From Candidatus Omnitrophota bacterium (GTDB lineage: Bacteria > Omnitrophota > Gorgyraeia > Gygaellales > UBA12090): DNA of 64,000 bases. Location of the stretch: NCBI GenBank assembly GCA_030674475.1, contig JAUSCZ010000035.1, positions 74,682 to 138,681 on the forward strand, read 5' to 3'. Position 1 is the first letter of the stretch. Each line of letters starts with the position of its first letter. Below are positions 3,107-63,445 of this stretch, in pieces. A program made the position numbers and the translations under genes. The notes beneath the pieces are model-generated. The model did not search any database, was not told where the DNA came from, and saw only the letters and a list, made by a program, of their open reading frames with translations.

Positions 3107-3132
3107 TGAGCCAACAAGGCAATATTATTAGA

Positions 3133-3200: not shown

Positions 3201-3208
3201 CTACTGAA

Positions 3209-3885: not shown

Positions 3886-3972
3886 CAGCGCACCTCTTAA
3901 GCTATCTAATTTTCTACTTTGATTTTTATCATACCACCAATAAAAAAGATACGCAAGAGATTTCCTATTGAC

Positions 3973-16219: not shown

Positions 16220-17864
16220 AAGTATATTTTTCGGTTTTCGCGTCCTTCCAGGAGTCAGCAGGCAAGCCTGCCTTATGAGCGCATAAATTAGAAAGGAACT
16301 CCTCCTTATTCCAGCCGGTCTCTTCAGCCACCTGAGGCAAAAATACCCCCTGGCTCCACCCCCGTTTGATCAACAAACCGTGCGTGCCTAACTGAAACTC
16401 AGCCACATCATCAATCTTTTTTAAAGGCGAGAGGACCGAAATTTCAATCTCAATATCCTTAAGCTCATCCTTGGTTACCGGCTCAAACCGGGGATCTCCG
16501 GTTGCCGACTCTATGGCCATATCCCTGATGGTTTCAAAAAGAGGCTTCTGGCCGATAATATTACCGATACAGCCTTTTAGCTTACCTTGCTTATGGATAG
16601 TTACAAAGGCACCGTTAATAGCCTTTAGCTGAGGATCATCTTCGCTAAAATCTAATTTTTTCCCGCTGGTTACATATTCCTGAATAGTCTTACGGGCAAT
16701 CTCCAGTAATCGCGCTTTCTGCGTATCATTCAACATAACTGTTTCTCCTGTCTTATCCTTATTAATTAAAGCTGATAAATACCCCACAGTCCACACCCCT
16801 TTTATCTTTTTACCGGAAACCTTAGCGGAATTAGTATGCCCCAAAAACTTTATTTGATTATAGCCTAAGCTTTGCGCGGTAAGTATCGCGCTGACCACCG
16901 GCAATCCCCCGCACATCTGGATTGAACCGTCTTTTAACTTCGCGTAAATATCCTGGGCAGACCCCGTTAGAAGCCTCTTACCGCTTTCAGATTGCTCCCC
17001 AGCTTCTAACGGGGCAGGCATCTTCCCTAAATAGGACAAAGTCAGCTTATCTACTCTCTCGGTTTCCTGGTAGTCATAACTGTGGCAAAGGTCCGTGGAA
17101 GCAATCAGCAACACATCTGAACGGCCCGCGATGGCTTTATTTAATATATCCGCCAAAACATTTAAACCGTGAAGGTCCGCGTCTCCAATCAAAATGGGAA
17201 CTATCTTAAAATCATCCAGGGTCTTTTGTAAGAAAGGAAGCTGAACCTCAATGGAATGTTCTTTTTCAAAAGCCTGAGGGATAAAGCTAATATTTTGGGA
17301 AGGAGAAATTATTTTTTGCGTAAAATCAGAGTCTACTTCTAGGTCTCCCAGGGGGGTTTGGAACTTACCGGATGGATATACTGAGACTCCCTTAAAATAA
17401 TACTGGTGACTGGGCCCCAGGAGGACCACGGTTTTATAAGGACGGCCTTTAATTAACTTATAGCCCAAGGCGGCGGTCGGCCCGGAGAAATCATAGCCGG
17501 CATGGGGAGAAATCAAACAAAATATTTCGCCTGTGGTGAGCGGTGGGTTGGCCGCGTTAAGCAGGTTTTCAACTTTATGGCTAAGCTCATCTTTATCCGC
17601 GGGATAAAACTGCCCGGCCACATTCGGTTTTTTTATCTCCTCGCCAAAGCTTAGGACATTAAAGCCAAAAAGCGCTCCCCCAAAAAAAAGGAAAAAAACA
17701 ATTGCTGTCCCTACTTTTCTCTTTGAAAAAAAGGAACTTCCCCCTTTCGTAAAGGGGGATGGAGGGGGATTTTCTAGGTTAGGGGAAATTTGGGAGCATT
17801 TACACAATGCACTAAGCCCAGATTCCGGCGATTGTTTCCTGACAAAACTTGCAATGCCCATCAA
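16185..17864 (-). CDS. AmmeMemoRadiSam system fusion protein: Memo1-like (protein B) plus AMMECR1 (protein A) domains, with N-terminal hydrophobic segment; start codon uncertain
   Basis: The Memo-like core is ISPHAGYDFSG...LCHSYDY. The AMMECR1 core is GAFVTIHKQGKLKGCIGNI...DPRF. A radical SAM partner is adjacent. Confidence 0.7.
   Translation of the reverse strand: MMGIASFVRKQSPESGLSALCKCSQISPNLENPPPSPFTKGGSSFFSKRKVGTAIVFFLFFGGALFGFNVLSFGEEIKKPNVAGQFYPADKDELSHKVENLLNAANPPLTTGEIFCLISPHAGYDFSGPTAALGYKLIKGRPYKTVVLLGPSHQYYFKGVSVYPSGKFQTPLGDLEVDSDFTQKIISPSQNISFIPQAFEKEHSIEVQLPFLQKTLDDFKIVPILIGDADLHGLNVLADILNKAIAGRSDVLLIASTDLCHSYDYQETERVDKLTLSYLGKMPAPLEAGEQSESGKRLLTGSAQDIYAKLKDGSIQMCGGLPVVSAILTAQSLGYNQIKFLGHTNSAKVSGKKIKGVWTVGYLSALINKDKTGETVMLNDTQKARLLEIARKTIQEYVTSGKKLDFSEDDPQLKAINGAFVTIHKQGKLKGCIGNIIGQKPLFETIRDMAIESATGDPRFEPVTKDELKDIEIEISVLSPLKKIDDVAEFQLGTHGLLIKRGWSQGVFLPQVAEETGWNKEEFLSNLCAHKAGLPADSWKDAKTEKYTFSALVFSEKKQ
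16961..17019. repeat. in-frame intragenic palindromic element, family B copy 1 (ACCCCGTTAGAAGCCTCTT...CTTCTAACGGGGCAGGC)
   Basis: About 85% identical to 35410-35470. Encodes MPAPLEAGEQSESGKRLLTGS in the middle of the Memo-AMMECR1 protein. Confidence 0.75.
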
Positions 17865-20257: not shown

Positions 20258-20327
20258 ACCCCTCCCCGCCTCCCCTTGCTAAGGGGAGGATTTCTTGTCG
20301 TAGGGGCGGGTTCGAACCCGCCCCTAC
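20258..20327. repeat. composite intergenic element: SD-sequestering hairpin module (CCCCTCCCCGCCTCCCCTTGCTAAGGGGAGGATTTCTT) plus REP palindrome GTAGGGGCGGGTTCGAACCCGCCCCTAC
   Basis: Fills the whole 76-nt intergenic gap and ends 4 nt from the pilin ATG. Copies occur at 37752-37821, 38456-38495 and 59380-59424, with related arms at 26623-26760. Confidence 0.8.
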
Positions 20328-26622: not shown

Positions 26623-26760
26623 GTAGGGGCGGGTTCGAACCCGCCCCTACCCCCGATAAGGGGAGGATTTCTTTCCGCCTGCCCCGCCAGCGGCGGTGGC
26701 CTCCCCCTGATAAAGGAAGTTTTCTTATCCCCTCCTTTACAAGGAGGGGTAGGGGAGGTA
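26623..26760. repeat. composite repeat: REP palindrome GTAGGGGCGGGTTCGAACCCGCCCCTAC followed by several CCCC/GGGGAGG-type hairpins
   Basis: Read directly from the sequence. Sits in the intergenic region between the PilM-like stop (26766) and the PilO-like start (26611). Confidence 0.75.
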
Positions 26761-28641: not shown

Positions 28642-28758
28642 AATCTGCCTCTGGCGCTTAGATTTTACTTGATTCTGAGCTCTGCGAAGAATCTTAAGGA
28701 ACAATCTGCCTCTGGCGCTTAGATTTTACTTGATTCTGAGCTCTGCGAAGAATCTTAA
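28642..28758. repeat. two tandem 61-bp direct repeats (AATCTGCCTCTGGCGCTTAGATTTTACTTGATTCTGAGCTCTGCGAAGAATCTTAA...), motif AGATTTTACTTG present 3 times
   Basis: Read from the sequence. Lies upstream of the excisionase-like gene, so these are candidate operator/iteron sites or a small RNA. Confidence 0.7.
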
Positions 28759-35054: not shown

Positions 35055-35473
35055 TGGTCACATCCAGTTCTATTAATAAGGCCGCCTTGGTTAGTAATAG
35101 TCATATTCCTACCACTACAGGCCAAACCGGAAACCGCGCGGGTAGCCGTGGCAGTAAAGCTTGGGCTGGTGGTGGCGTTAATAGAATAAGTAAAACTGTC
35201 TCCTTCTAAATCAATCCCTAAATTCTCAGTATCATTAGTATACTCTCCCTCGTTCAAATAATACCTCTGCTGGGCAGAGTAGATTAATTGCAGGTTAGCC
35301 TCGGCTTCTTTGGCCTTATTTTTCTCTGAAGATCGGCTAAAATTACCCATATTCAGGCTAACCAAAATCCCGATAATTACCAAAACCACCAGCAACTCAA
35401 TCATAGTAAACCCCGTTAGAAGCCTCTTGCCTCTTACAGGTTGCTCATTAACTTCTAACGGGGCAGGCCCCAT
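35048..35473 (-). CDS. type IV pilin with 21-aa leader (ORF track starts at TTG 35485; ATG at 35473 has an AGGAGA SD upstream)
   Basis: ...GKRLLTG|FTMIELLVVLVIIGILVS prepilin cleavage/methylation site. Confidence 0.7.
   Translation of the reverse strand: MGPAPLEVNEQPVRGKRLLTGFTMIELLVVLVIIGILVSLNMGNFSRSSEKNKAKEAEANLQLIYSAQQRYYLNEGEYTNDTENLGIDLEGDSFTYSINATTSPSFTATATRAVSGLACSGRNMTITNQGGLINRTGCDQW
35410..35470. repeat. family B palindromic element copy 2, encoding the pilin leader peptide
   Basis: About 85% identical to 16961-17019. The CCCCGTTAGAAG / CTTCTAACGGGG arms are an inverted repeat. Confidence 0.75.
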
Positions 35474-37751: not shown

Positions 37752-37821
37752 ACCCCTCCCCGCCTCCCTTTGTTAAGGGGAGGATTTCTCCCCGTAGGGG
37801 CGGGTTCGAACCCGCCCCTAC
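37752..37821. repeat. composite intergenic element (SD-hairpin module plus REP palindrome) between exbB stop and exbD start
   Basis: ACCCCTCCCCGCCTCCCTTTGTTAAGGGGAGGATTTCTCCCCGTAGGGGCGGGTTCGAACCCGCCCCTAC. The exbB stop codon TAG lies inside the palindrome. Confidence 0.8.
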
Positions 37822-38499: not shown

Positions 38500-38640
38500 C
38501 CAACAAGTTATTAAACTCTAAATCCTAAATTCTAAACTCGAAACCCTAAACAAATCCCAAACCCAAAACATTATATTTTTAGTTTTGAGTTTATGATTTT
38601 GCCTGCCTGCCGGCAGGCAGGAGTTTGTTTAGGATTTAGG
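38500..38640. terminator. large inverted-repeat region (CTAAATCCTAAA... / ...TTTAGGATTTAGGG arms around the perfect palindrome GCCTGCCTGCCGGCAGGCAGG)
   Basis: Read from the sequence; lies downstream of the TPR gene stop. Confidence 0.55.
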
Positions 38641-41077
38641 GTTTAGGATTTAGGGTTTTTTGTATTTCCAGGAGCCTCTCCTGGGCGAATTTAGACTCTT
38701 CAACATCAAGGCTGACTATTTTTTCATACATCTCAACTGCCTTCTGAATATCTTCTTTGTCCTCATAAATCTTGCCCGCGCGCAGTAAACCTTTTACCAA
38801 TATATCCTTATCGGCTTCGGAGCTGATAGCGCGATATTCCAGGACCGCTTCGTCCAATAAACCCGCCTCTTCCAAACATTCCGCCAGGCCAAACCGCGCC
38901 TGAGCCTTGTTTTCAGAACCGCCTTCCTGAAGAACCTTCCGGTAGTAAGAGGCCGCGTCTAGAAAATTACCCGAAGATTTATAGATATCGGCTATCTTAG
39001 GATACACCTTTTGCTTATCGCGCTCTATCTTTTTAAACGCCTCCAGGGCTTCTTCGTAGCGGCCGTCCTTCTCGAAAGCCCGGCCCAATAAATAATACGC
39101 ATCGTCCCGCGCTAAAGGATCCTGCCCGCTCTGAATAATATCTAACAGATAGCGCCGGGATAAGTCAAGCTTATTTTCCTGGAAATAATGTTCGGCCAGG
39201 CGCCAGAGAACCGCGGATGAAACCTCAGAACTGCTGTATTTAGAGCGCAGATACTCCAGCTTGCTTAAGGCCTCCTCAATCCGGCCCAGAGAATACAAAC
39301 AGTCCGCCATCTCAAACTCCGCCCTGGCCGATAGCTTCGCGTCTTGAGCGTCCAGCTTAGCCGCCTGCTTAAAAATCTCGTAAGCATCCTGAAACCGGCC
39401 CAAGGATTTAAGGCTTAACCCCTGAAAGTTAAGCGCCCGGGCCTTATGGGCACTCCGGGGATAACGGGTTACAAAACTTCTCAACTGCATATAGCTGTTT
39501 AGAAAATCACCCTGTTCGTAATAAGCCGTTCCCAAATAAAAGTTGATTGTCTCTCTCGCTGGCGATTCGGAATATTTAGCTATTGCCGATTTTAAAACTT
39601 CTATTGCCCGGCCGTATTCCCGGGATTTCAATAAAGCTAAACCCAAACCGCTATAGACATAGCCGCAATTCGCGCAATCAGGATAGTCTTTCAAAATACC
39701 CTCGTAAATACCAATGGCCTTCTTGTTATCCCCTGATTCCAGGAAAACCTCGGCCATTTCAGTCAGCGCCGAAACCTTAAGGCTATCATCCTTGGAATTC
39801 TGGGCCAATAAAGAGAATTCTTTTAAGGCCTGGCCAGTATTTCCCGACTTTAAGTAACTTAGGCCCAGACCATAACTTATCCTATCCGAAAATGAACCGC
39901 TCACCTCAGGATTGATTCGGCCCTCTGCCTCTTTATACGCCGAGATTGATTGAGAATAGTCTCCTTGATTGTAAAGCGCCTCGGCTTTTCCTATATACGC
40001 CTCTAAGACAATAGCGGCATCCTTAGAGCGGCTGATAAGCTTATCATAGTTTTCTATGGCTTCAGGAAACTTTAAGCTCATCCCCAGGGCCAAGGCCCGG
40101 CCTAAAAGCGCGTTTTCAAAATAACCGCCGCTTTCGGCAGAAAGAGGTTTATCAAAATTCATCAGCGCCGAGGCATAATCCCCTGATTTCAAATAACTCC
40201 ATCCCAAGCCTAAATAAACCGGGTTCTTGAAATCGTCATCACTATCCTGAGCCAAGGCCTGTATATAGTTATCTATAGCATAAGGATAGTCTTTTAAATA
40301 AAAACCGCTTTCGGCTAAATAAAATTTAATTAATCTTTTCCCGGACGCGTCCGAAAGAACCTCCGGAATATTCCCGGATTGAGCCGAATTTGGCCTTAAA
40401 TAATAGTTCTTTTCCAGATATTCAGCGTAACTTTTAAGCTGAGAGTAATCCTTTAAGCTGTAAAGACATTCGGCAATCTTATAATCCGCCTCTCTTACCA
40501 GAAGATTCCCGGGAAACTTATCCTTGAAAGCGCTGAATTTATCCTGCGCCTCTTTAAATTTACCCTGTTCAAATAAACACCAGCCCAGGGAATAATAGGC
40601 CTGAGCCAAATAAGCTGAATCCAGACACTCCAGGGTTAACTTTTCATAAAAATTTAACGCCGAAGGCATATCCTGGCTTCTAAGATAACTCTCGGCCAGC
40701 CAATAATAAATTTTATCCTTAGATACTGCCGCATCCTTTAAATTTATGGTTCGACCGCGCGGTTCACCATCAAGCAGACGATTAAATTGTTCTATTGCCG
40801 GAGCGTATTTTTTCTGATTAAAATAACACCTGCCAATATATAAATCCGCTTCCGGTGAAAGCGCGCTTTGGGGAAATCGCGAGATAAATTTATTTAAAAG
40901 GTTAAGGCTGGTATCGTAAAAACCATTCTCGAAAGCGCCCACAGCCAAAGAAAGCTCTTCTTGTTCTTTTTTGTCAGAATCCGTCTCCTGGGCACGCGCG
41001 GCAGAGAACGAAAAACAAATAACGGAAAGTAGAAGAAAAGATAAAATTAATATTTTTGACTTTTTATTTTTCAACAT
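38636..41077 (-). CDS. secreted tetratricopeptide-repeat (TPR) protein, 813 aa
   Basis: Signal peptide followed by more than 15 TPR-like helical repeats (recurrent A..Y/F..G.Y..A patterns). Confidence 0.7.
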   Translation of the reverse strand: MLKNKKSKILILSFLLLSVICFSFSAARAQETDSDKKEQEELSLAVGAFENGFYDTSLNLLNKFISRFPQSALSPEADLYIGRCYFNQKKYAPAIEQFNRLLDGEPRGRTINLKDAAVSKDKIYYWLAESYLRSQDMPSALNFYEKLTLECLDSAYLAQAYYSLGWCLFEQGKFKEAQDKFSAFKDKFPGNLLVREADYKIAECLYSLKDYSQLKSYAEYLEKNYYLRPNSAQSGNIPEVLSDASGKRLIKFYLAESGFYLKDYPYAIDNYIQALAQDSDDDFKNPVYLGLGWSYLKSGDYASALMNFDKPLSAESGGYFENALLGRALALGMSLKFPEAIENYDKLISRSKDAAIVLEAYIGKAEALYNQGDYSQSISAYKEAEGRINPEVSGSFSDRISYGLGLSYLKSGNTGQALKEFSLLAQNSKDDSLKVSALTEMAEVFLESGDNKKAIGIYEGILKDYPDCANCGYVYSGLGLALLKSREYGRAIEVLKSAIAKYSESPARETINFYLGTAYYEQGDFLNSYMQLRSFVTRYPRSAHKARALNFQGLSLKSLGRFQDAYEIFKQAAKLDAQDAKLSARAEFEMADCLYSLGRIEEALSKLEYLRSKYSSSEVSSAVLWRLAEHYFQENKLDLSRRYLLDIIQSGQDPLARDDAYYLLGRAFEKDGRYEEALEAFKKIERDKQKVYPKIADIYKSSGNFLDAASYYRKVLQEGGSENKAQARFGLAECLEEAGLLDEAVLEYRAISSEADKDILVKGLLRAGKIYEDKEDIQKAVEMYEKIVSLDVEESKFAQERLLEIQKTLNPKP

Positions 41078-52616: not shown

Positions 52617-53930
52617 TTATCCAAAAATTTCTTTTATTATTTTGTGATTCAGGTGCGCGGAAAATGTATTCAACAAGCTGTCTTCCATATCCTTTATCTT
52701 ACATTTATTATCTTCAGCATAGCGGATCACTTTCCCAATAATCTCGTGGGCCTGGGCAAAAGGGATTTTCTTCTCTTTTACCAGATATTCCGCCAGATCA
52801 ACGGTATACAAACTTTCATCTTCTAGCGCCTTTTCTATAACTTTCTCGTTAAGTTTTATTCCTTTTATAAACCGGGCCAGGATTTTAAGCTCGTCCTTAA
52901 TAATATCCACCGAAGAAAATAAAGGCTCTTTATCTAACTGCATATCCCGGTTATAGGTTAAAGGCAGGCCCTTCATTATGGTTAACAAAGCCATAAGGTT
53001 ACCGTAAATCCTTCCGGTATAGCCCCTGACCAATTCCAGGAAATCCGGGTTTTTCTTATGCGGCATAAGACTGCTTCCGGTGCAAAATTCCTCCGGCAAA
53101 TCCACGAAATTAAACTCTTGGGTGGAAAACAGTATCATATCCTCAGCAAAACGGGATAGATGCATCTGCAATATAGAAAGAATACTCAAGAACTCAACAA
53201 TAAAATCCCGGTCGCTTACATGCTCAAGAGGATTTTCCACAGTTTGCAGCTTAATTGTTTCATCTAGAGCGAGTTTTTTAATAATTCCCTGTAAGGCGTT
53301 ATCATAATGTTTAGTTAAAATTGTTCCTTTAAAAGCTCCTGAACCAAGGCTTGCGACAATTTTATTACTAAAATCATCACATCTTTTCCGGTCTCTTTCA
53401 AAAATACAGACAAAAGAACCTAAGTAATCCTTGAAGTCAACTTTCTGGGCCCTTTGGGTGTGGGTATAGCCCACAATAGAAAAACCAATGTATCGTCTAC
53501 TTAATTCTAAAAATGATTTTATGACTTCTAAAATTAATTTTTCAATTTCTAATGATTGTTTTCGGCAATAAAATTTCTCATCAAAGGCAATCTGGTCATT
53601 TCTTGAGCGCAAGGTATGCAGTTTATCGGCTAACTTTCCCACTTTTTTTTCAACCCGATTTTGAATTTCCGTATGTATGTCTTCGGATTGTAAGTTTGGC
53701 TTAAATTTATTTTCTTTTATTTCTGTATATATTTCTTGTAAAGCAAAATGCAATTTCTTCTCTTCCTTAGGGGTTAAAATGCCGGCATCTTTTAATGCTA
53801 ATATATGTATCTGAGAGTGCGTAACATCATAAAGGGCGAGCCTATAGTCATACTGTATAGATTTCTGGAACTCAAAGAAATCTATATCAATTTCTTTCTT
53901 AAACCTTCCGCCCCACAATTTCTTGGCCAT
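52617..53930 (-). CDS. argH: argininosuccinate lyase (ORF track extends to 54026; start at 53930 MAKKLWGGRF)
   Basis: KLWGGRF and HTLRSRNDQIAFD (fumarate lyase signature region). Confidence 0.85.
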   Translation of the reverse strand: MAKKLWGGRFKKEIDIDFFEFQKSIQYDYRLALYDVTHSQIHILALKDAGILTPKEEKKLHFALQEIYTEIKENKFKPNLQSEDIHTEIQNRVEKKVGKLADKLHTLRSRNDQIAFDEKFYCRKQSLEIEKLILEVIKSFLELSRRYIGFSIVGYTHTQRAQKVDFKDYLGSFVCIFERDRKRCDDFSNKIVASLGSGAFKGTILTKHYDNALQGIIKKLALDETIKLQTVENPLEHVSDRDFIVEFLSILSILQMHLSRFAEDMILFSTQEFNFVDLPEEFCTGSSLMPHKKNPDFLELVRGYTGRIYGNLMALLTIMKGLPLTYNRDMQLDKEPLFSSVDIIKDELKILARFIKGIKLNEKVIEKALEDESLYTVDLAEYLVKEKKIPFAQAHEIIGKVIRYAEDNKCKIKDMEDSLLNTFSAHLNHKIIKEIFG

Positions 53931-53940
53931 TTTCTTCTCT

Positions 53941-55137
53941 CTATTTTTTACTTTTGATTTTTGATTTTTGATTTTCAAACGGCATCCCAAAAATCCGGAT
54001 AAACCCTTCGGAAAGTTTCTGGTCAAATTTGTCTTTCGCGGTATAGGTGGCTAATTCTTCCCGGTAGAGCGAACGCGGCGATTTTCTGCCCACCACACTG
54101 CAATTTCCCTTATACAACTTAAGCCTTACCGTGCCGCTGACTGTTTTTTGGGTTTCTTCAATAAACTTATCCAGGGCTGTCCTTAATTTGGAATACCACA
54201 GGCCGTAATAAATAAGCTCCGCGTATTTAAGGGCCACGGTTTCTTTGTAATGGCAGGTTTCCCGGTCCAGAACTAAAGCCTCTAATTCCCGGTGGGCGAT
54301 ATGCAGAATAGTCCCGGCCGGGGCCTCATAAATCTCCCGGGATTTTATCCCTACCAGCCGGTTTTCCATCATATCACTTCTGCCGATACCGTGGATTGAG
54401 CCTAGATTACACAGTTTATCAATCAATTCAAGAGGAGAACAACTCTTTCCGTTTATCTTTTTAGGGATTCCTCTTTCGAATTCTATCTCTACGTATACGG
54501 GCTTATTCGGGGCTTCTTCCGGCGAATTGGTCCACTGATAACAATCCTCCGGCGGACTTACCCAGGGGTCTTCTAAAACCCCGGATTCTATGGAAACCCC
54601 CCATAAATTCTTGTCTAAGCTGTAAGACTTTTTCTTGGTAACATCAATGGGAATTCTTTTGGCCTTAGCGTATTCTATCTCTTCTTCCCGGGATTTAAAC
54701 TCCCAAATTCTTACCGGGGCGATAATTTCTAACTCAGGGTCAAGAATCCTGGAGGTAACCTCAAAGCGCACCTGGTCATTGCCTTTTCCGGTACAACCAT
54801 GGGCAATCGCGGCGGCCTTTTCCTTATGCGCCACCTCAACCAGATATTTGGCAATCAAAGGCCTGCCCAGCGCGGTAGCCAGGAGATATTTACCTTCATA
54901 AACCGCGTCTGCTTTTAAGGAAGGGAAAATAAAATCCTCAACAAATTCTTTTCTTAGGTCTTGGATATAAACCTTGGAAGCCCCTCCTAAAAGGGCGCGT
55001 TTTTCTATCTTTATAAAATCCTCGCCCTGTCCTAAGTCGGCAATAAAACAGATAACCTCATAACCCTTATCCTTAAGCCAATGCACCGCGCAAGAGGTAT
55101 CTAAACCGCCTGAATATGCCAATACCACCTTTTTCAT
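53941..55137 (-). CDS. argG: argininosuccinate synthase
   Basis: AYSGGLDTS PP-loop. Confidence 0.9.
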   Translation of the reverse strand: MKKVVLAYSGGLDTSCAVHWLKDKGYEVICFIADLGQGEDFIKIEKRALLGGASKVYIQDLRKEFVEDFIFPSLKADAVYEGKYLLATALGRPLIAKYLVEVAHKEKAAAIAHGCTGKGNDQVRFEVTSRILDPELEIIAPVRIWEFKSREEEIEYAKAKRIPIDVTKKKSYSLDKNLWGVSIESGVLEDPWVSPPEDCYQWTNSPEEAPNKPVYVEIEFERGIPKKINGKSCSPLELIDKLCNLGSIHGIGRSDMMENRLVGIKSREIYEAPAGTILHIAHRELEALVLDRETCHYKETVALKYAELIYYGLWYSKLRTALDKFIEETQKTVSGTVRLKLYKGNCSVVGRKSPRSLYREELATYTAKDKFDQKLSEGFIRIFGMPFENQKSKIKSKK

Positions 55138-56054
55138 ATTCCTCCTAATAACTTTAAAAGAATCGCCTTTTGCGCGTGCAATCTGTTTTCCGCTTGGTCA
55201 AAGACTACCGATTTTGAGGAATCAATCACCTCATCGGTTATTTCTTCTCCCCGGTGCGCCGGCAGACAATGCATAATCAAACAATTTTTCTTGGCGGAGG
55301 AAACAAGTTTTTGATTAATTTGATAATCCCGGAATATTTTCCTTCGCGCCTTGGCCTCTTTTTCCTGGCCCATGCTCGTCCAGACATCAGTATAAATCAC
55401 ATCCGCGTTTTTGCAAGCTTTTAATGGGTCGCGGCTTAAGCTGATCAAGGCCCCGGAAATCGAAGCCATACCCAAGGCCTCTTTAAAAACTGTCTTATCC
55501 GGCTCAAATTTTTTGGGTGTGGCGATATTCAGGTTTAAGCCGATTTTCGCGCAGCCGTAAAGAAGAGAATGGGTAACATTGTTACCATCGCCGCAATAAG
55601 TTAAGGTCCTGCCTTTAAACGAGCCGAATTTCTCTCTTATGGTATATAAATCCGCTAAGGCCTGGCAGGGATGCGAAAGGTCGGAAAGCCCGTTAATCAC
55701 CGGCACACTGGCGTATTTTGCCAGTTCTATAATATTCTTATGCTCAAAGGTCCGCAGAACTATTCCGTCAACATAGCGAGAGAGCGTCTGAGCCACATCC
55801 CTGATTGCCTCTCTCACCCCTAAATTTATTTCCCCCGGACCCAAATAAATGCTTAACCCCCCAAGCTGAAATATGCCCACCGCGAAAGATACCCTGGTCC
55901 TGTTGGACGGCTTCTGAAAAATAAGGGCCAGGGTCTTTCCTTTTAAACTCTGGGAGTATTTTTGCTTGTTTTCTTTAAGCTTGTCCGTAAGCAGAAAAAT
56001 CTCTTCTATTTCCTTCAAGCTTAAATCCTTAACTGATATTAAATCTTTTTTCAT
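55134..56054 (-). CDS. argF: ornithine carbamoyltransferase
   Basis: STRTR carbamoyl-phosphate motif and HCLP ornithine-binding motif. Confidence 0.85.
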   Translation of the reverse strand: MKKDLISVKDLSLKEIEEIFLLTDKLKENKQKYSQSLKGKTLALIFQKPSNRTRVSFAVGIFQLGGLSIYLGPGEINLGVREAIRDVAQTLSRYVDGIVLRTFEHKNIIELAKYASVPVINGLSDLSHPCQALADLYTIREKFGSFKGRTLTYCGDGNNVTHSLLYGCAKIGLNLNIATPKKFEPDKTVFKEALGMASISGALISLSRDPLKACKNADVIYTDVWTSMGQEKEAKARRKIFRDYQINQKLVSSAKKNCLIMHCLPAHRGEEITDEVIDSSKSVVFDQAENRLHAQKAILLKLLGGI

Positions 56055-56068
56055 TCTCTGGTTGCTGG

Positions 56069-57256
56069 TTACTGGTTTCTGGTTACTACAGTCAACACCA
56101 TATCCAATATCCCCACTGCCTTATCAATCTGCTTGCAAGTTACATTTAAGGCCGGCATCAGCCTTAAGACCGTTTCGTGAGTGCAGTTAATCAATAAACC
56201 TCTTTTAATACACTCCTCGACTACCGGCTTCCCTGCCGTATTCAGTTCAATGCCAATCATCAACCCCAGGCCGCGGACTTCTTTGATTATAGAATATTTC
56301 TTAGCCAACTCTGATAATCTCTTTTTTAAATATTCCCCCATTTCCCGGGCATTGGCAATCAGCTTTTCTTTACGCAGGGCCTTAAATACCCCTAAAGAGG
56401 CCCTACAGACCAGAGGGCTCCCTCCAAAGGTAGAGGCATGTCTTCCCGGGCCCAGGATATCAGCAATTTCTTTTCTCGCCACCATTGCTCCGATAGGTAA
56501 ACCCCCTCCCAGGGCCTTGGCTAAGGTCATTATATCCGGAGTGATTCCGTAGTGCTGATACGCGAACATCTTGGCAGTCCGGCCTAGGCCGGTCTGGACC
56601 TCATCCGCGATCAAAAGTATCTTTTTCTCATCGCAAAGCTTTCTTAAATATAAGACAAAATCCTGATCGGCAACATTTATCCCTCCTTCGCCCTGCACCA
56701 GCTCAATAATAATTCCCGCGGTTTTATCCGATAGCGCGTTTTTCAAGGCATCCCTGTCATTATAGGCAACGCTTTTAAAACCCTCAGGAAGCGGTTCGAA
56801 GCCCTCTTGATATTTGCTCTGACCGGTCATAGTCAGGGACGCCAGGGTCCTGCCGTGAAAGGAATTCTCAAATGAGATTATCTCATATCTGCCCGCGCCA
56901 TACGCCCGGGTGAGCTTTACCGCGGCCTCATTGGCCTCAGCCCCGGAATTGGCAAAAAACACCTTACCGGGAAAGGAGTGATAAATTATTTCTTTGGCTA
57001 ATTTTGCCTGGGGAATAGACAGGTAATTGTTAGGCAGATGAATCAGCTTATCTATCTGGTCCCGGACCGCCGAGACCACATCCGGATGGCAATGCCCCAA
57101 AGAACTCACCCCCCAGCCGGGAAAGAAATCCAGGTATTCCTTGCCGTCAACATCAATAACCTTCATCCCCTTTCCTTTGACAAAAATCAAAGGTATCCGG
57201 GTATAGGTAGGCATGATGTAATCCTGATAGGCCTGAAAGATTTCTTGCTTCTTCAT
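56069..57256 (-). CDS. argD: acetylornithine aminotransferase (class III)
   Basis: Class III PLP-aminotransferase signature (...ADEVQTGLGRTA...). Confidence 0.85.
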   Translation of the reverse strand: MKKQEIFQAYQDYIMPTYTRIPLIFVKGKGMKVIDVDGKEYLDFFPGWGVSSLGHCHPDVVSAVRDQIDKLIHLPNNYLSIPQAKLAKEIIYHSFPGKVFFANSGAEANEAAVKLTRAYGAGRYEIISFENSFHGRTLASLTMTGQSKYQEGFEPLPEGFKSVAYNDRDALKNALSDKTAGIIIELVQGEGGINVADQDFVLYLRKLCDEKKILLIADEVQTGLGRTAKMFAYQHYGITPDIMTLAKALGGGLPIGAMVARKEIADILGPGRHASTFGGSPLVCRASLGVFKALRKEKLIANAREMGEYLKKRLSELAKKYSIIKEVRGLGLMIGIELNTAGKPVVEECIKRGLLINCTHETVLRLMPALNVTCKQIDKAVGILDMVLTVVTRNQ

Positions 57257-57302: not shown

Positions 57303-58157
57303 TTATTTAATGATTTCGGTGCCGATTCCCTGCTTGGTAAAGATCTCTAAGAGCAAGGCGTGGGGAATCCGGGCATCTATAATATGGGTCTTCTTTACCG
57401 TGGCCTCTAAAGCGGATATACAGCTCTTCACCTTAGGGATCATCCCTTGATGCACTGCCCCTTCCTTAATCAAACCATTGGCCTCGGAAATAGTCAAGGT
57501 GGAAATAAGCGAACTAGTGTCTGAGGTAGAGCGCATAATTCCCCGCACATTAGTCAAAACTACTAATTTTTCCGCGCACAGGCTGGAGGCAACCCTGGAG
57601 GCCGCCTCATCAGCATTAATATTATAGGTTTTTCCGTCTTTGCCTTTTCCCATCGGACACAATACCGGGATAGAGTAATTCTTAGTTTCCCGAAGTATCG
57701 GCTCAGTATCTATCGCTTCCACCTCCCCCACCAGGCCCAAATCCTTAGCCTCTTGTCTTTTACGGGCTAAGATTACCCCGCTATCTTTACTGGAGAACCC
57801 TGTCGCCTTTTGGCCTAATTCCTGAAGCTCCGAAACAATTATCGCGTTAAGCTTCTCCAGCTCTTCCTCGACCACCGCCAGGGTCTTCGCGTCAGTAACC
57901 CGCATCCCGTCCACAAACTCGGTCTTCATACCCTCCTGCTTCATCCTCTCGGATATATTCGGCCCGCCGCCGTGAACCAGGACCGGGCACAAACCCATAT
58001 AGCTTAAGAAAACTATATCCTCCAAAACCCCCTGGCGGATTTTTTCATCGCCTAAAATGCTCCCACCATATTTTATCACCATCACCTTGCGGTGAAATTC
58101 CTTAATATAAGGCAAAGCCTCAATCAAAACATCCGCTTTTCTAATCGCGTCTTCCAT
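57303..58157 (-). CDS. argB: acetylglutamate kinase
   Basis: Amino-acid kinase family (VIKYGGS...VLVHGGGP). Confidence 0.85.
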   Translation of the reverse strand: MEDAIRKADVLIEALPYIKEFHRKVMVIKYGGSILGDEKIRQGVLEDIVFLSYMGLCPVLVHGGGPNISERMKQEGMKTEFVDGMRVTDAKTLAVVEEELEKLNAIIVSELQELGQKATGFSSKDSGVILARKRQEAKDLGLVGEVEAIDTEPILRETKNYSIPVLCPMGKGKDGKTYNINADEAASRVASSLCAEKLVVLTNVRGIMRSTSDTSSLISTLTISEANGLIKEGAVHQGMIPKVKSCISALEATVKKTHIIDARIPHALLLEIFTKQGIGTEIIK

Positions 58158-58243
58158 GTGCCCTCGCTCCGCTCGGGAGAAACCAGAGGCCAGTTGCCAG
58201 AGACCAGATTTTTCTGGTTACTGGTTACTGGTTTCTGGTTACT
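58158..58243. repeat. 5'-UTR heptamer-repeat element copy 2 (same as 8346-8435), immediately upstream of argB ATG
   Basis: CCCTCGCTCCGCTCGGGAGAAACCAGAGGCCAGTTGCCAGAGACCAGATTTTTCTGGTTACTGGTTACTGGTTTCTGGTTACT. Confidence 0.75.
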
Positions 58244-59379: not shown

Positions 59380-60440
59380 ACCCCTCCCCGCCTCCCCTTG
59401 TTAAGGGGAAGATTTCTTAACAGGCCCTCGGTTTCTTTAAAGCCGCAGAGCAAATTCATATTCTGCACTGCTTGAGCCGAAGCGCCCTTAAGCAAATTAT
59501 CTATCGCGGAAATTATAATAATTGTTTTCTGATCCGTACTAATCTTAACGCCGATATCGCAAAAGCTGGTTCCCTGAACATCCCTCAAACAAGGAAATTC
59601 GCCTTCGTTTTTTATCCTCACCAAAGGCTTATCCTTATAGTATTTTTTATAAATATTTATTAACTGGTGGCTGGTGGCTGGTGGCTGATGGCTGACTTTC
59701 ATATATATCGTTTCCAAAATTCCCCTTTCTATGGGCAAAAGATGGGGAACAAAGGTAACCTTTATCTTTTTCTTGGCCAGCTTAGACAGCTCCTGCTCTA
59801 TTTCAGGCGTATGCTGATGGGCATCAACCTTATAGGCCTTGAAATTGTCCTTTAGTTCGAGCCAGAAAGGATCATCCGCCGGCTTTCTGCCGGCTCCGCT
59901 GTAACCGCTTTTGGCATCAATAATAATCTCTCGCGGGCTAAGTTTTTCTTTTAATAAGGGAGCCAGGGCCAAAATCGCCGCGGTGGGGTAACATCCGGGA
60001 TTAGCTATAAAATCCGCCTTTTCTATCTTTAAACCGTTAATCTCCGGCAAGCCATAAATTGCCTTTTTAATATTCGCCTTATCCTTATGCTTGACCTTAT
60101 ACCAGGCTTCATAAAGCTCCCAGTCATTCAGCCGGTAATCCGCGCTTAAATCAATAACCTTTTTCCCTCCCCTTAGCAGGACGGGAACCACATCCATAGA
60201 GTTGGTATGCGGCAAGGCCAGGAAAAACAAATCCGCGGATTGGACGGCCTTAGTTAGATTAAGATTATCGCAATACAGATCCAACCGGCCCTTAAATTGA
60301 GGAAAAATTTCAGCTATCGGAACCGGCTTATCCAGCCTGGCCGTGAGATAACTTATCTTTACCTGGGGATGTCTTAACAAAATCCTGATTAACTCTTCCC
60401 CGGTATATCCCCTTACCCCGATTATTCCTACCCTCACCAT
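59376..60440 (-). CDS. argC: N-acetyl-gamma-glutamyl-phosphate reductase
   Basis: Semialdehyde dehydrogenase family (GVRGYTG, active-site Cys region). Carries two embedded repeat tracts: a (CTGGTGG)n run at 59664-59694 and the SD-hairpin module at 59380-59424. Confidence 0.85.
   Translation of the reverse strand: MVRVGIIGVRGYTGEELIRILLRHPQVKISYLTARLDKPVPIAEIFPQFKGRLDLYCDNLNLTKAVQSADLFFLALPHTNSMDVVPVLLRGGKKVIDLSADYRLNDWELYEAWYKVKHKDKANIKKAIYGLPEINGLKIEKADFIANPGCYPTAAILALAPLLKEKLSPREIIIDAKSGYSGAGRKPADDPFWLELKDNFKAYKVDAHQHTPEIEQELSKLAKKKIKVTFVPHLLPIERGILETIYMKVSHQPPATSHQLINIYKKYYKDKPLVRIKNEGEFPCLRDVQGTSFCDIGVKISTDQKTIIIISAIDNLLKGASAQAVQNMNLLCGFKETEGLLRNLPLNKGRRGGV
59380..59424. repeat. SD-hairpin module copy embedded in the 3' end of argC, supplying the argC C-terminus (LLRNLPLNKGRRGGV*) and the RBS/start of argJ
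   Basis: ACCCCTCCCCGCCTCCCCTTGTTAAGGGGAAGATTTCTTAACAGG. The argC TGA stop overlaps the argJ ATG (ATGA). Confidence 0.8.
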
Positions 60441-61662: not shown

Positions 61663-62220
61663 CTACTTTCCTTGAGGTCTGACCCCCGCTTTTATAATCT
61701 TTTCCGGTTTTCTCAATTTATCAGTAAAGACCTCTACATTCTTATTAAAAATAAATATCGCGGTGTCTCGGGGAGAATTCTTTACTGCCTGATTAGCCGC
61801 TCTAATTATATCTTTTGCCTTCAAGGAAAATTTCCCGGCTATAAAAAGAGAATCATTCAAATCCGCTTCAGTGCCCCGTCTAAGCTTGGCAATAACAAAA
61901 TCTATTGGGGAGAGCACCTTTACCTTTAATTTATCATCCGAATAAACAGTTGTTGCCCTTTTTTTGTATCCCGGAGGCAAGGAAATAAGCGACCATCTGG
62001 ATATGTCTTCGCCGATATCAGAAGGGATTCTATTCTTTCTTAAGAAATCTGAGAGCTTGTCCACATCGCCTTTCACCTCGGCGTCAATATCCAGGGTAGC
62101 TTTACCCCGCAGGCCGTAATATTCCAGGCTTAAACCGCCGATGAGAATAATCTCCAAGCGGCTATCCCTGGAGAATTTCTTCAGCAATTGAATAACATTA
62201 TCTAATTTAATCCCGGACAA
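61663..62220 (-). CDS. small nucleotidyltransferase-fold protein (minimal MNT / DUF6036-like)
   Basis: LIGGLSLEYYG...TLDIDAEV (the GG...DxD nucleotidyltransferase signature). Confidence 0.5.
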   Translation of the reverse strand: MSGIKLDNVIQLLKKFSRDSRLEIILIGGLSLEYYGLRGKATLDIDAEVKGDVDKLSDFLRKNRIPSDIGEDISRWSLISLPPGYKKRATTVYSDDKLKVKVLSPIDFVIAKLRRGTEADLNDSLFIAGKFSLKAKDIIRAANQAVKNSPRDTAIFIFNKNVEVFTDKLRKPEKIIKAGVRPQGK

Positions 62221-62539
62221 AGTTTAAGGCCTCCTGGAACCTTCTATACTCCGCAAAATCAACTTTTCCCCTTCTAAATTCCAACGGCTCCCTCTTTAGG
62301 CAGCCGTTAATCAAACTCTTAAAGCTATGATACCACACACAGGCCTTTACATAAGCTTCTTTTACGGCTGAATATTTTATCTCCTTCCAGCAAATACCGT
62401 CGTTAAAGAGTATCTCTAACCATAGAAGCGAGCTACTCTTATCATCCTTAAGCGCCTGCTTAAGGGTTTCTTTCCCAGTATAAAAGGGAATTATCTTTAA
62501 TTTATTTTTTACTATTTCTTTTCTTTTAACCGTAGGCAT
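62207..62539 (-). CDS. hypothetical protein, upstream partner overlapping the nucleotidyltransferase gene by 14 nt
   Basis: 110 aa with no recognizable motif. The coupled arrangement suggests a two-gene module. Confidence 0.4.
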   Translation of the reverse strand: MPTVKRKEIVKNKLKIIPFYTGKETLKQALKDDKSSSLLWLEILFNDGICWKEIKYSAVKEAYVKACVWYHSFKSLINGCLKREPLEFRRGKVDFAEYRRFQEALNFVRD

Positions 62540-62616
62540 AATATTTTAAACCATCGAACAAAGGAACAAAGAAGAACAAAGAAGACGCTTTATATAACTT
62601 ATTAATAGGCAATAAA

Positions 62617-63303
62617 TTACCTATTAACTATTTCTCTTCGCGGCCTACCATTCCGAGGCATAAATACTCCTCGCTCTAATACTAATCTTCTTAAGAATTC
62701 ACCTGAACCCAGCGGTTTTTCAAAATCATCAAATAATTCCTCTTCTTTTTCATCAAATTCCAGTAGAAAACTCTGATATTTCAATCTTCTTCCTTCAGCC
62801 GTTAGTCCAAAAGTGGCAAATAAAGGATTCTCCTCTGTAAGACTGTCCACTTTACCATAAATATAATATGCCGCGCTGCTAAACGGATATTCAGCCGCTG
62901 ACTGAACAAGCCCGGCATTAATCGGATTTCTCTCAATATATCTTCCGCAGGTTAATAGATATTCTTCCTTCTCGACAGCCTGGCATTTAAATCTACCCTG
63001 AAAAAGATGCCCAACGGAGTTATATTTTTTATGATAATAGTAAACATAAGAACGCGCGATACCGGCCATAATGGACGATATTTCTTTAGGATTATCCAAC
63101 GCCAGCAGGAGATGGTAGTGATTAGACATAATGACCCAGTGATGAATCCTTAAGTTACGCTGGCGGGTATATTTAGTTAATATCTCAATAAAACGGTTAT
63201 AATCTTCGTTATCATGGAAAATATTATTCTTGGCGTTTCCTCTATTAAAGATATGATAGATCAGCGACCCAGTTATACTATAAGAACGGGCTGTATAAGG
63301 CAT
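62617..63303 (-). CDS. IS200/IS605-family Y1 (HUH) transposase, REP-associated tyrosine transposase (RAYT)-like
   Basis: HUH motif (SNHYHLLL), a downstream catalytic Tyr region (YVYYYHKKY), and a ~228 aa size. Confidence 0.7.
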   Translation of the reverse strand: MPYTARSYSITGSLIYHIFNRGNAKNNIFHDNEDYNRFIEILTKYTRQRNLRIHHWVIMSNHYHLLLALDNPKEISSIMAGIARSYVYYYHKKYNSVGHLFQGRFKCQAVEKEEYLLTCGRYIERNPINAGLVQSAAEYPFSSAAYYIYGKVDSLTEENPLFATFGLTAEGRRLKYQSFLLEFDEKEEELFDDFEKPLGSGEFLRRLVLERGVFMPRNGRPRREIVNR

Positions 63304-63370
63304 AGATTAAACTATATTGGAGAATGATAATGTTGTCAAATAGTTTTTGTGTATCTATAAGGTATTCAAT

Positions 63371-63445
63371 TTGTTATGTAAAGCGTCTTCTTAAAACTTT
63401 AAAAATTTGTTATGTAAAGCGTCTTCTTAAACTTTTAAATTTTAA
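63371..63445. repeat. tandem direct repeat (AATTTGTTATGTAAAGCGTCTTCTTAAAACTTTAAA x2) upstream of the transposase gene
   Basis: Read from the sequence. Confidence 0.7.

What the first reader, a model, noticed from the sequence alone, without database searches (positions are those of the whole stretch)
62570..63445. RAYT/IS200-like HUH transposase flanked by inverted AAGAAGACGCTTTA motifs and tandem repeats
The 228-aa protein has HUH (HYH) and tyrosine motifs typical of IS200/IS605 TnpA and REP-associated tyrosine transposases. It is flanked on the left by AAGAAGACGCTTTA plus a TTAATAGG...CCTATTAA hairpin. It is flanked on the right by two tandem copies of GTTATGTAAAGCGTCTTCTTAAAAC carrying the inverse motif. 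Given the many REP-like palindromes in this window, a domesticated RAYT could be their mobilising enzyme. The locally different composition and the adjacent hypothetical and nucleotidyltransferase genes suggest an accessory islet.
Basis: partly seen in the sequence, partly recalled or inferred. Interest (0 to 1): 0.55.

Follow-up and report, generated by a model that had tools for sequence, protein, structure and literature searches.

The report
Small TIR-bounded tyrosine-transposase mobile element
This is an intact, roughly 814-bp one-gene mobile element from an Omnitrophota genome, encoding a RAYT-like HUH tyrosine transposase bounded by conserved terminal inverted repeats ("TIRtron/TIRYT", named in 2013); it is a new example of a known but never tested kind, and it is not linked to the other palindromes in the window.

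Summary
A 228-aa Y1 HUH protein (62617-63303, minus strand) has an intact HYH motif and catalytic Tyr122. It is flanked by a 25-nt inverted repeat, present once on the left and twice, in a 36-nt tandem, on the right.

The closest solved structure, by sequence and by fold, is E. coli TnpA_REP (4ER8). The protein scores below NCBI's RAYT cut-off and far below the IS200 cut-off.

Relatives at 45-88% identity, all from Omnitrophota, sit among different neighbouring genes. They carry the same ends (AGACGCTTTAYRTAAC ... GTTAYRTAAAGCGTCT) and, in the two closest relatives read (L081, L083), the same internal promoter. Homology to the 88% relative starts and stops exactly at these repeats.

A 52% relative occurs as an identical element in at least 3 left and 4 right flank contexts. 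Metagenomes hold gene-less 113-149-bp miniatures with both ends. No target-site duplication is seen.

This matches the "TIRtron/TIRYT" class of Di Nocera 2013 (Quentin 2018 subclass 2.1-like), not a REP-flanked domesticated RAYT and not IS200/IS605.

The window's GTAG palindromes and other repeats are unrelated in sequence, and the end motif occurs nowhere else in the 64 kb. One feature remains unexplained: short tandem duplications that span the element/flank junction recur across the family.

Verdict: new member of a known kind, modest interest.

The parts
62579..63392 (-). Whole mobile unit (about 814 bp): right-end repeat, transposase gene, promoter and left-end repeat. Left and right are defined on the gene's strand.
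   Evidence: Homology to L081 (88% aa relative among different neighbours) begins at AAGACGC and ends at GCGTCTT. The equivalent units measure 812 bp in L081 and 804 bp in L083. GC is 0.36 against a window mean of 0.445.
62617..63303 (-). TIRYT / RAYT-like Y1 HUH tyrosine transposase gene, 228 aa, with HUH at H62-Y63-H64, catalytic Y122 and a conserved YPFSSA serine motif
   Evidence: Pfam Y1_Tnp E 1.1e-14. NCBIfam REP_Tyr_transpos 70.1 bits (cut-off 80) and IS200 18.3 bits (cut-off 55). PDB sequence hit 4ER8. AlphaFold pLDDT 90.5, with best fold match 4ER8, TM 0.70 normalised to the target. Invariant residues come from A1. dN/dS is 0.14 against L081.
62579..62603 (-). Right-end terminal inverted repeat, downstream of the stop codon; core AGACGCTTTATATAAC at 62583-62598 as read on the + strand
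   Evidence: Inverted-repeat pairs I1/I2. The core is conserved in L081, L083, L001, L002, L008, L009 and the miniature elements.
63368..63392 (-). Inner left-end terminal inverted repeat, upstream of the promoter; core at 63373-63388
   Evidence: It aligns with the single left end of L081 and with the left ends of L083 and the miniature elements.
63404..63428 (-). Outer, duplicated copy of the left-end repeat; the second unit of the 36-nt tandem repeat at 63368-63443
   Evidence: It is absent from L081. Tandem end copies also occur in L010 (a 41% relative) and as junction duplications in other family members.
63311..63339 (-). Sigma-70-type promoter inside the element: TTGACA, 17 nt, TATAGT
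   Evidence: 11 of 12 consensus matches. The block AACTATTTGACA-17-TATAGT/TATAAT is conserved in L081 and L083.
62602..62627 (.). Weak AT-rich hairpin TTAATAGG(N10)CCTATTAA overlapping the stop codon; probably incidental or a weak terminator
   Evidence: -4.4/-5.5 kcal/mol, z -1.5/-2.1. The stem is not conserved in L081 or L083, although the GTAATTTATT block within it is conserved.
62556..62585 (.). 10-nt tandem array (GAACAAAGAA x3.2) that starts inside the outer edge of the right-end repeat and runs into the flank
   Evidence: TRF. It belongs to a recurrent pattern of junction-spanning duplications.

Best explanation
Window 62579-63392 is an intact single-gene mobile element of the TIRtron type. 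It encodes a RAYT-like Y1 HUH tyrosine transposase (TIRYT), expressed from a consensus-like sigma-70-type promoter inside the element (a consensus match, not tested). It is bounded by 16-25-bp terminal inverted repeats with the core AGACGCTTTAYRTAAC.

Shown:
- The protein has the TnpA_REP-like fold with intact HUH and Tyr motifs, and is under purifying selection.
- The ends are conserved across Omnitrophota relatives even where synonymous sites are saturated.
- Homology between copies in different genomic contexts stops exactly at the repeats.
- A related element is present as identical copies in several contexts.
- Gene-less 113-149-bp miniatures with both ends exist in metagenomes.
- Insertions lack target-site duplications.

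Inferred:
- The enzyme nicks and rejoins single-stranded DNA at the outer edge of the repeats (around GCGTC/TT), as IS608 TnpA and E. coli TnpA_REP do on their substrates.
- It probably acts on a hairpin or panhandle formed when the two ends pair on one strand. The isolated ends do not fold, but the miniatures fold into long hairpins closed by end-to-end pairing.
- In this way it would move both the full unit and the miniatures in trans.

In this window the element is solitary, and it has no connection with the window's other palindromic repeats.
For: Protein:
- Pfam Y1_Tnp.
- Best PDB match by sequence is 4ER8. Best match by fold is also 4ER8, E 2.8e-8, ahead of IS608/ISDra2 TnpA.
- H62, H64, Y122, S142 and S143 are invariant.
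- dN/dS is 0.14.

Ends:
- 25-nt inverted repeat.
- The same core flanks the genes in L081, L083, L002 and L008, and lies beside the gene in L001 and L009, where only the downstream flank could be checked. Variants occur in L003, L005, L006 and the L140 gene.
- pS is 0.90 between the window and L083, yet the core is retained.
- The alignment with L081 has sharp homology boundaries.

Mobility:
- The window, L081 and L083 share no neighbouring genes.
- The P0079 element is identical in at least 3 left and 4 right flank contexts, and 16 of 20 contigs carrying it are shorter than 2 kb.

Miniatures:
- 8-9 of 80 metagenome hits have a partner end 113-149 nt away in the proper orientation. None of 50 viral-contig control hits does.
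- Subterminal homology to the window element's ends extends beyond the repeats.
- Hairpin folds have z-scores of -4 to -7 in five of the six folded; the sixth, L100a, is not significant (z -1.9).

Other:
- Promoter.
- Low GC.
- Literature: TIRtron/TIRYT in PMC3733652; subclass 2.1 in PMC6006769.
Against: - Only one copy and no solo ends or miniatures occur in the 64 kb available. The same arrangement is seen in a second sample (L211). Activity in this particular genome is therefore unproven.
- No empty site could be recovered to define the exact termini.
- The many left/right flank combinations of the P0079 element may partly be assembly chimeras.
- The repeat core (AAGACGCT) does not fit the published GGGGWSAS motif.
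- The C-terminal extension has no detectable HTH or DnaA_C match.
- No TIRYT has been tested biochemically. In the library searched, only two works mention the term. The single-strand mechanism and the nick position are therefore extrapolations.
Confidence: 0.8

Rival explanations
1. The gene is a domesticated, single-copy RAYT that no longer moves itself and serves to disperse the REP-like palindromes abundant in this genome.
For: - The closest solved relative is E. coli TnpA_REP.
- There is one copy in the window.
- The protein is under purifying selection.
- The window holds GTAG-headed palindromes of the type RAYTs act on (PMC3733652).
Against: - The flanks are not REPs. They do not fold on their own and share no sequence with any repeat family in the window.
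- The GTAG palindrome is absent from all 261 fetched loci, including 100+ loci with relatives of this gene.
- The repeat-gene-repeat unit itself is found in unrelated contexts.
- The protein scores below the NCBI RAYT equivalog cut-off.
Confidence: 0.06
2. It is a resident, no-longer-mobile copy. The gene is kept for a host function, and the inverted repeats now act mainly as binding or operator sites for autoregulation.
For: - There is a single copy, with an identical right-hand junction in a second sample (L211).
- dN/dS is 0.14.
- The P0004 and P0033 elements each sit at one stable locus across many samples.
- The left-end repeat lies just upstream of the promoter.
Against: - Both ends, the promoter and the catalytic residues are intact.
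- The closest relative (88%) is in a different context with exact end boundaries.
- The family shows multicopy members and miniatures.
- The element's GC is still atypical for its host.
Confidence: 0.1
3. It is an ordinary IS200/IS605-family insertion sequence, or a TIR-bounded cargo unit moved by an unrelated DDE transposase.
For: - Pfam Y1_Tnp is named 'Transposase IS200 like'.
- IS608 and ISDra2 TnpA are fold matches.
- An IS30-like element abuts the ends in some loci.
Against: - The NCBIfam IS200 score is 18.3 against a cut-off of 55.
- There is no tnpB.
- The ends are symmetric inverted repeats, not the two like-oriented subterminal hairpins of IS200/IS605.
- No target-site duplications are present, which argues against a DDE mechanism.
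- The end sequence varies together with the clade of the encoded protein.
Confidence: 0.04

Closest known systems
TIRtrons / TIRYTs (TIR-associated tyrosine transposases; Di Nocera, De Gregorio & Rocco 2013, PMC3733652)
   Same: - A RAYT-like Y1 HUH gene, longer than classical RAYTs.
- It is flanked at fixed short distances by terminal inverted repeats rather than REPs.
- The ends are sometimes present as dimers or clusters, and as small repeat families elsewhere.
   Different: - The repeat core here is (A)AGACGCTTTAYRTAAC, not the published GGGGWSAS. More distant relatives that I fetched do carry GGGGACG or GGGACAC cores.
- The host phylum, Omnitrophota, was not among the phyla named in the passages I read.
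- The 113-149-bp hairpin-forming miniatures and the junction-spanning tandem duplications were not mentioned in the passages I read.
TnpA_Y1 subclass 2.1 (Quentin, Siguier, Chandler & Fichant 2018, PMC6006769)
   Same: - It is closer to TnpA_REP than to TnpA_IS200.
- It has a long conserved C-terminal extension.
- It has a conserved serine motif just after the catalytic Tyr.
- No REP lies nearby.
- The distribution across phyla is patchy.
   Different: - The C-terminal extension gives no Bac_DnaA_C, HTH_23 or HTH_28 match, even at E<=10.
- Assignment with the authors' own HMMs was not possible.
REPtron: E. coli TnpA_REP (RAYT, PDB 4ER8) with REP/REPIN sequences
   Same: - It is the best structural and sequence match.
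- The gene is flanked by inverted copies of its presumed substrate.
- Short gene-less doublets fold into long hairpins, as REPINs do.
- No target-site duplication is produced.
   Different: - The flanking units are not themselves palindromes and lack the GTAG head.
- The protein is 60 residues longer.
- The whole gene-carrying unit appears mobile, rather than single-copy and vertically inherited.
IS200/IS605 family (IS608, ISDra2 TnpA)
   Same: - The HUH/Y1 catalytic core and fold are shared.
- The element is small.
- Insertion leaves no target-site duplication.
   Different: - The ends are inverted repeats instead of like-oriented subterminal hairpins.
- There is no tnpB.
- The score is far below the IS200 family cut-off.

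Membership tests
Y1 HUH transposase superfamily (Pfam PF01797) | Profile match above the curated cut-off | tested here: met
   55 bits against a cut-off of 23, E 1.1e-14, covering profile positions 4-121 of 121.
Y1 HUH transposase superfamily (Pfam PF01797) | HUH metal-binding motif and a single catalytic Tyr on the following helix, within the TnpA fold | tested here: met
   H62-Y63-H64 and Y122 are invariant in 30 sequences. Y122 aligns to Y115 of 4ER8. The model has pLDDT 90.5 and matches 4ER8, 2VJV and 2XQC.
RAYT / REP-associated tyrosine transposase (NCBIfam NF047646; Nunvar 2010) | Score at or above the curated equivalog cut-off | tested here: not met
   70.1 bits against a cut-off of 80.
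RAYT / REP-associated tyrosine transposase (NCBIfam NF047646; Nunvar 2010) | Gene flanked by inverted REPs, meaning short self-complementary palindromes that typically have a GTAG head and are abundant in the genome | tested here: not met
   The flanks are inverted, but they do not fold on their own (z +1.7/-0.1). They have no GTAG head and occur nowhere else in the 64 kb.
RAYT / REP-associated tyrosine transposase (NCBIfam NF047646; Nunvar 2010) | Single copy per genome with vertical inheritance (Bertels 2017, PMC5581495) | tested here: inconclusive
   There is one copy in the window, but the rest of the genome was not available. Close relatives lie in non-syntenic contexts, and one relative is multicopy.
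TIRtron / TIRYT (Di Nocera 2013) | RAYT-like tyrosine transposase gene bounded by terminal inverted repeats unrelated to REPs, at conserved distances from the gene | tested here: met
   The arms are 25 nt. Arm spacing is 764 nt in the window and 772 nt in L081 and L083. The ends are conserved in at least 9 Omnitrophota loci.
TIRtron / TIRYT (Di Nocera 2013) | Protein distinguishable from RAYTs by greater length and its own sequence signatures | tested here: met
   The protein is 228 aa against 165 aa for 4ER8. The C-terminal 85 residues are conserved across the family. It falls below the RAYT cut-off.
TIRtron / TIRYT (Di Nocera 2013) | GGGGWSAS motif in the repeat. This is present in 'some' TIRs, so it is not strictly defining. 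| tested here: not met
   The core here is AAGACGCT. GGGGACG and GGGACAC cores are seen only in more distant relatives.
TnpA_Y1 subclass 2.1 (Quentin 2018) | C-terminal domain with similarity to Bac_DnaA_C, HTH_23 or HTH_28 | tested here: not met
   No Pfam family matches residues 137-228 even at E<=10. No part of the PDB fold search matched the C-terminal part.
TnpA_Y1 subclass 2.1 (Quentin 2018) | Short conserved serine motif following the catalytic Tyr, and no REP nearby | tested here: met
   YPFSSA, with S142 and S143 invariant. There are no REP-like hairpins in the flanks.
TnpA_Y1 subclass 2.1 (Quentin 2018) | Placement by the authors' subclass HMMs or tree | not testable with these tools
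   The subclass profiles are not available here.
IS200/IS605 | NCBIfam NF033573 score at or above the cut-off | tested here: not met
   18.3 bits against a cut-off of 55.
IS200/IS605 | Asymmetric ends with like-oriented subterminal hairpins and no terminal inverted repeats | tested here: not met
   The ends are inverted repeats. The only hairpin is weak and not conserved.

The most novel reading that the evidence does not exclude
TIR-bounded Y1 elements may use a transposition mode distinct from both IS200/IS605 and REP/RAYT. The substrate would be a single-strand panhandle or hairpin closed by pairing of the two terminal repeats. Cleavage would occur at the stem base (around GCGTC/TT). This would move either the 0.8-kb gene-carrying unit or 113-149-bp miniatures. 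It would leave no target-site duplication, but repeated nicking would cause the junction-spanning tandem duplications seen at many ends, including both ends of the window copy.
Probability: 0.25. Interest if true: 0.55.

Novelty: new member of a known kind. Interest (0 to 1): 0.3.

Why it matters
- TIRYT/TIRtron elements belong to a very large protein family: 28,488 cluster representatives at 50% identity match at E<=1e-3. Yet they have been described only bioinformatically; in the library searched, only two works mention the term. No biochemical test appears in the works I found.
- The Omnitrophota clade found here offers a compact, well-delimited model for such a test. It has a 16-nt conserved end core, an internal promoter, matched miniatures, and multicopy relatives.
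- That model could show how a Y1 HUH enzyme handles symmetric ends, and whether it causes the junction duplications.
- For annotating this genome, the practical message is narrower. This is a solitary small mobile element, not the engine behind the genome's abundant palindromic repeats.

Tried and rejected
- Exact-protein look-ups for the transposase, its 100% identical database entry P0001, and the upstream 168-aa ORF found nothing. Look-ups of the two downstream genes found only L211, which has the same arrangement. No empty site or second context for this exact copy was obtained.
- The TTAATAGG hairpin was considered as an IS200-like subterminal hairpin or a terminator. It was rejected because it is weak and not conserved.
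- The C-terminal extension was tested as an HTH or DnaA_C domain. There was no Pfam hit at E<=10.
- The difference between L088 and L083 was checked as a possible second insertion context. It is the same locus with an unrelated 104-nt indel.
- The scan of viral contigs with the end 16-mer gave 50 single hits with no partner end and no gene. These are chance matches, used as a control.
- Most of the 80 metagenome hits are likewise lone matches and probably chance.
- L097, with a partner 805 nt away, had no transposase homologue and was not counted.
- A link between this gene and the GTAG palindromes was examined. There is no shared sequence, no adjacency, and no GTAG palindrome in any fetched locus.
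- A conserved tetranucleotide next to the left end, as in IS608-style targeting, was looked for by eye. None was found for the window clade. Two P0079 contexts share TACCGCC, but that is not interpretable.
Full report
**Observation**

The region reads as the first-stage reader described it.
- The ORF at 62617..63303 on the minus strand encodes 228 aa.
- On the plus strand, AAGAAGACGCTTTA lies at 62579-62592. An 8-bp stem, TTAATAGG/CCTATTAA, lies at 62602-62627.
- On the other side, a 36-nt unit containing GTTATGTAAAGCGTCTTCTTAA occurs twice in tandem (63368-63443, 92% matches).
- The 14-mer, and a 16-mer core searched with up to 3 mismatches, occur only at this locus in the 64 kb.

**The protein**

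- It matches Pfam Y1_Tnp over the whole profile (E 1.1e-14).
- Against NCBI's curated models it scores 70.1 bits for REP-associated tyrosine transposase (cut-off 80). It scores only 18.3 bits for IS200/IS605 transposase (cut-off 55).
- The only solved structure found by sequence is E. coli TnpA_REP, 4ER8. In that alignment HYH (62-64) matches HMH, and Y122 matches Y115; that Y115 is the catalytic tyrosine is from my knowledge of the 4ER8 work.
- An AlphaFold model built on 30 homologues is confident (pLDDT 90.5, pTM 0.87). Its best fold match is again 4ER8 (E 2.8e-8, TM 0.70 normalised to the target), ahead of IS608 and ISDra2 TnpA.
- In 30 full-length homologues, H62, H64, Y122, R121, E124, N126 and the serine pair in YPFSSA are invariant. 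The 85-residue C-terminal extension is conserved too.
- That extension has no Pfam match even at E<=10.
- The source organism is a Candidatus Omnitrophota MAG, judged from a 100% identical database entry on a contig of 190,996 bp.
- The wider family is huge: 28,488 representatives of 50%-identity clusters at E<=1e-3, and 11,713 at E<=1e-10.
- The window holds no second Y1 gene.

**The flanks are element ends**

- The 88%-identical relative P0002 (locus L081) lies among entirely different genes. So does the 64% relative P0004 (L083).
- Both carry the same ends. In L081 these are ATAAGACGCTTTATATAACT ... AGTTACATAAAGCGTCTTAT. In L083 they are TAGACGCTTTACGTAA ... TTATATAAAGCGTCTA. The arms are 772 nt apart in each.
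- A pairwise alignment of the window locus with L081 shows about 89% identity that begins at AAGACGC and ends at GCGTCTT. Sequence outside is unrelated. L081 has one left end where the window has two.
- The same core flanks the gene on both sides in L002 and L008. In L001 and L009 only the downstream copy could be checked, because the upstream flank is cut off or truncated. Variants (GGACGCTTTTGATAAC, GGACGCTATATATAAC, TAGACAGTTTACATAAC) occur in L003, L005, L006 and the L140 gene.
- All of these loci are from Omnitrophota, at 45-57% protein identity.
- Synonymous sites between the window and L083 are saturated (pS 0.90), yet the non-coding core is retained. Against L081, dN/dS is 0.14.
- A sigma-70-type promoter lies inside the element: TTGACA-17-TATAGT, 11 of 12 consensus positions, at 63339..63311. 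It is conserved as AACTATTTGACA-17-TATAGT/TATAAT in L081 and L083.
- The element's GC is 0.36 against 0.445 for the window, in the lowest 2% of windows of equal size.

**Evidence of mobility in the family**

- The 52% relative P0079 was found on 20 contigs, 16 of them shorter than 2 kb.
- The element sequence is identical on those contigs, but it is joined to at least three different left flanks and four different right flanks.
- The many left/right combinations are probably in part assembly chimeras across a repeat. That in itself implies several copies.
- In 8-9 of those loci the match has a second end in the correct inverted orientation 113-149 nt away, with no gene between. These are L100 (two), L110, L119, L132, L140, L144, L152 and L162.
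- None of 50 hits in viral contigs, which serve as a chance control, has such a partner.
- The miniatures share subterminal sequence with the window element beyond the repeats. On the right this is the block (T)GTAATTTATT..GCCTAT. On the left it is GTTACAAAAC, at the same distance from the end. They are therefore internal-deletion derivatives of elements like this one.
- Some contigs carry several miniatures: L100 has 2 in 6.4 kb, and L162 has 3 in 10.9 kb.
- No direct target-site duplication is visible at any full-length or miniature copy.

**Structure of the ends**

- Folded as single-stranded DNA, the repeats on their own have no structure. The tandem-repeat region gives z +1.7 and -0.1.
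- The TTAATAGG hairpin is marginal (z -1.5 and -2.1), and its stem is not conserved in L081 or L083.
- Five of the six miniature elements folded form long hairpins closed by pairing of the two ends (z -3.9 to -7.5); the sixth, L100a, is not significant (z -1.9).
- This is the geometry of REPINs, except that each arm is not itself a palindrome.

**Wider family and literature**

- In about 50 loci of more distant relatives (Bacillota, Planctomycetota, Elusimicrobiota, Thermodesulfobacteriota and others), most genes are flanked by inverted repeats. Their cores are GGGGACG, GGGACGGTTCT or GGGACAC.
- Di Nocera et al. 2013 (PMC3733652) described exactly this. They found RAYT-like genes flanked by terminal inverted repeats, many sharing GGGGWSAS. 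They named the elements TIRtrons and the enzymes TIRYTs, noted that the enzymes are longer than RAYTs, and reported moderately abundant families of the repeats, often as dimers or clusters.
- Quentin et al. 2018 (PMC6006769) place most TIRYTs in TnpA_Y1 subclass 2.1. That subclass is characterised by a conserved C-terminal extension, a serine motif after the catalytic Tyr, and no nearby REP.
- Only these two works in the searchable library use the terms. I found no experimental characterisation.
- Bertels et al. 2017 (PMC5581495) describe a large, widely distributed RAYT Group 1 with the highest duplication rate among true RAYT groups. That this group corresponds to TIRYTs is my inference and was not tested.

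**Interpretation**

- The locus is a TIRtron: an intact, self-contained mobile element about 814 bp long.
- It works like a REPtron/REPIN system, in that a Y1 HUH enzyme has inverted copies of its substrate on both sides and there are short hairpin-forming non-autonomous derivatives.
- It fails two defining RAYT features. It scores below the curated cut-off, and its flanks are not REPs.
- It also fails the IS200/IS605 tests.
- Unlike classical RAYTs, the gene-carrying unit itself appears to move.
Those families include GTAGGGGCGGGTTCGAACCCGCCCCTAC x3-4 and CCCCTCCCCGCCTCCCCTTGyTAAGGGGAGG x5, among others. They share nothing with the ends and are not adjacent to the gene. The GTAG palindrome is absent from all 261 fetched loci.

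**What remains inferred or unexplained**

- The single-strand mechanism and the nick position are extrapolated from IS608 and TnpA_REP.
- Activity in this genome is unproven. There is one copy, no other ends in the 64 kb, and the same junction in a second sample. No empty site was found.
- One recurrent feature is unexplained. Short tandem duplications start inside the last 1-5 nt of the repeat (..GCGTCTT) and extend into the flank. The cases seen are:
  - Both ends of the window copy, as a 10-nt array at 62556-62585 and a 36-nt array at 63368-63443.
  - L144, L100b, L119 and L140.
  - L010.
  - L265/L266, where the duplication is a polymorphism relative to L262 and L264, which share the same flanking context.
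- Eight of the 28 ends scored show such a duplication. By comparison, 9.5% of random 74-nt windows in the same loci contain any tandem repeat anywhere.
- Three causes are possible: repeated nicking and repair at the cleavage site, replication slippage at the base of the end-to-end hairpin, or preferential insertion into the short intergenic arrays that are common in this genome.

**Verdict**

This is a new (Omnitrophota) member of a known but experimentally untouched kind of element. Interest is modest, at 0.3. It would be higher only if the end-pairing mechanism and the nick-induced junction duplications were demonstrated.

Noticed in passing
window 3116-3216: Two inverted copies of AAAAATAGGGACACATCCCATTTTT lie 19 nt apart in an intergenic gap. 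This is a REPIN/MITE-like doublet. Its core, TAGGGACACNTCCC, also forms the terminal repeats of a distant TIRYT locus (L075) and occurs twice in L162. This points to a second TIR family in this genome, with no cognate gene in the window.
   Followed up: partly
window 20300-20327, 26623-26650, 37794-37821 (variant at about 11754); 20259, 26641, 37753, 38458, 59381: A GTAG-headed perfect 28-nt palindrome, GTAGGGGCGGGTTCGAACCCGCCCCTAC, is often fused to a CCCCTCCCCGCCTCCCCTTGyTAAGGGGAGG hairpin. These are REP-like repeats with no RAYT in the window. They are absent from all fetched loci.
   Followed up: partly
window 16961-17019 / 35410-35468; 12680-12732 / 13693-13745; 8343-8401 / 58155-58213; 28642-28758; 28869 / 29643: Several further dispersed or tandem repeat families of 41-59 nt at 86-100% identity. 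Some are palindromic (ACCCCGTTAGAAGC...GCTTCTAACGGGG). Their nature is unknown.
   Followed up: no
window 8400-8447, 53929-53975, 56054-56087, 58210-58243, 59660-59693, 38513-38658: Short tandem arrays with units of about 6-7 nt sit at intergenic positions (for example TTCTGGTTACTGGTTACTGG). They appear to be a general feature of this genome's spacers, and they are relevant to the junction-array question.
   Followed up: no
L263:2303-2390, L269/L270 downstream of the gene, L005 downstream of the gene, L119:260-320: An IS30-like element (HTH_38 + rve transposase) abuts the outer edge of the TIRtron ends in several loci. The end sequence is GGGTTCAAGCAACTAATGCAAC... . A remnant of about 57 nt of the same IS end sits inside the L119 miniature element. 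This IS may target these repeats.
   Followed up: partly
window 62556-62585 and 63368-63443; L144:8640-8700; L265/L266 versus L262; L100, L119, L140: Tandem duplications recur whose unit spans the element/flank junction (CGTCTT plus flank). They are polymorphic between loci sharing the same flanks. The cause is unresolved.
   Followed up: partly
window 61663-62539 (-): An overlapping gene pair encodes a 110-aa protein with no family match and a 185-aa DUF6036 nucleotidyltransferase. It lies between rplM and the element and is toxin-antitoxin-like. Its GC is 0.40. The same arrangement is seen in L211.
   Followed up: partly
L262, L264, L267, L268, L271 right end: In these loci the right-end repeat of the P0079 element reads TTATCAACAG--TCTT. 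A 2-nt deletion removes the conserved GCGTC core, so this copy may be immobilised. Alternatively the change may be a product of junction deletion.
   Followed up: no
L140:711-833 and 3780-4463: One contig carries an AGACGCTTTA-type miniature element and, 3 kb away, a TIRYT gene (45% identity) whose own ends are the variant GTAGACAGTCTACGTAAC. The resident enzyme and the miniature therefore do not have identical ends.
   Followed up: partly
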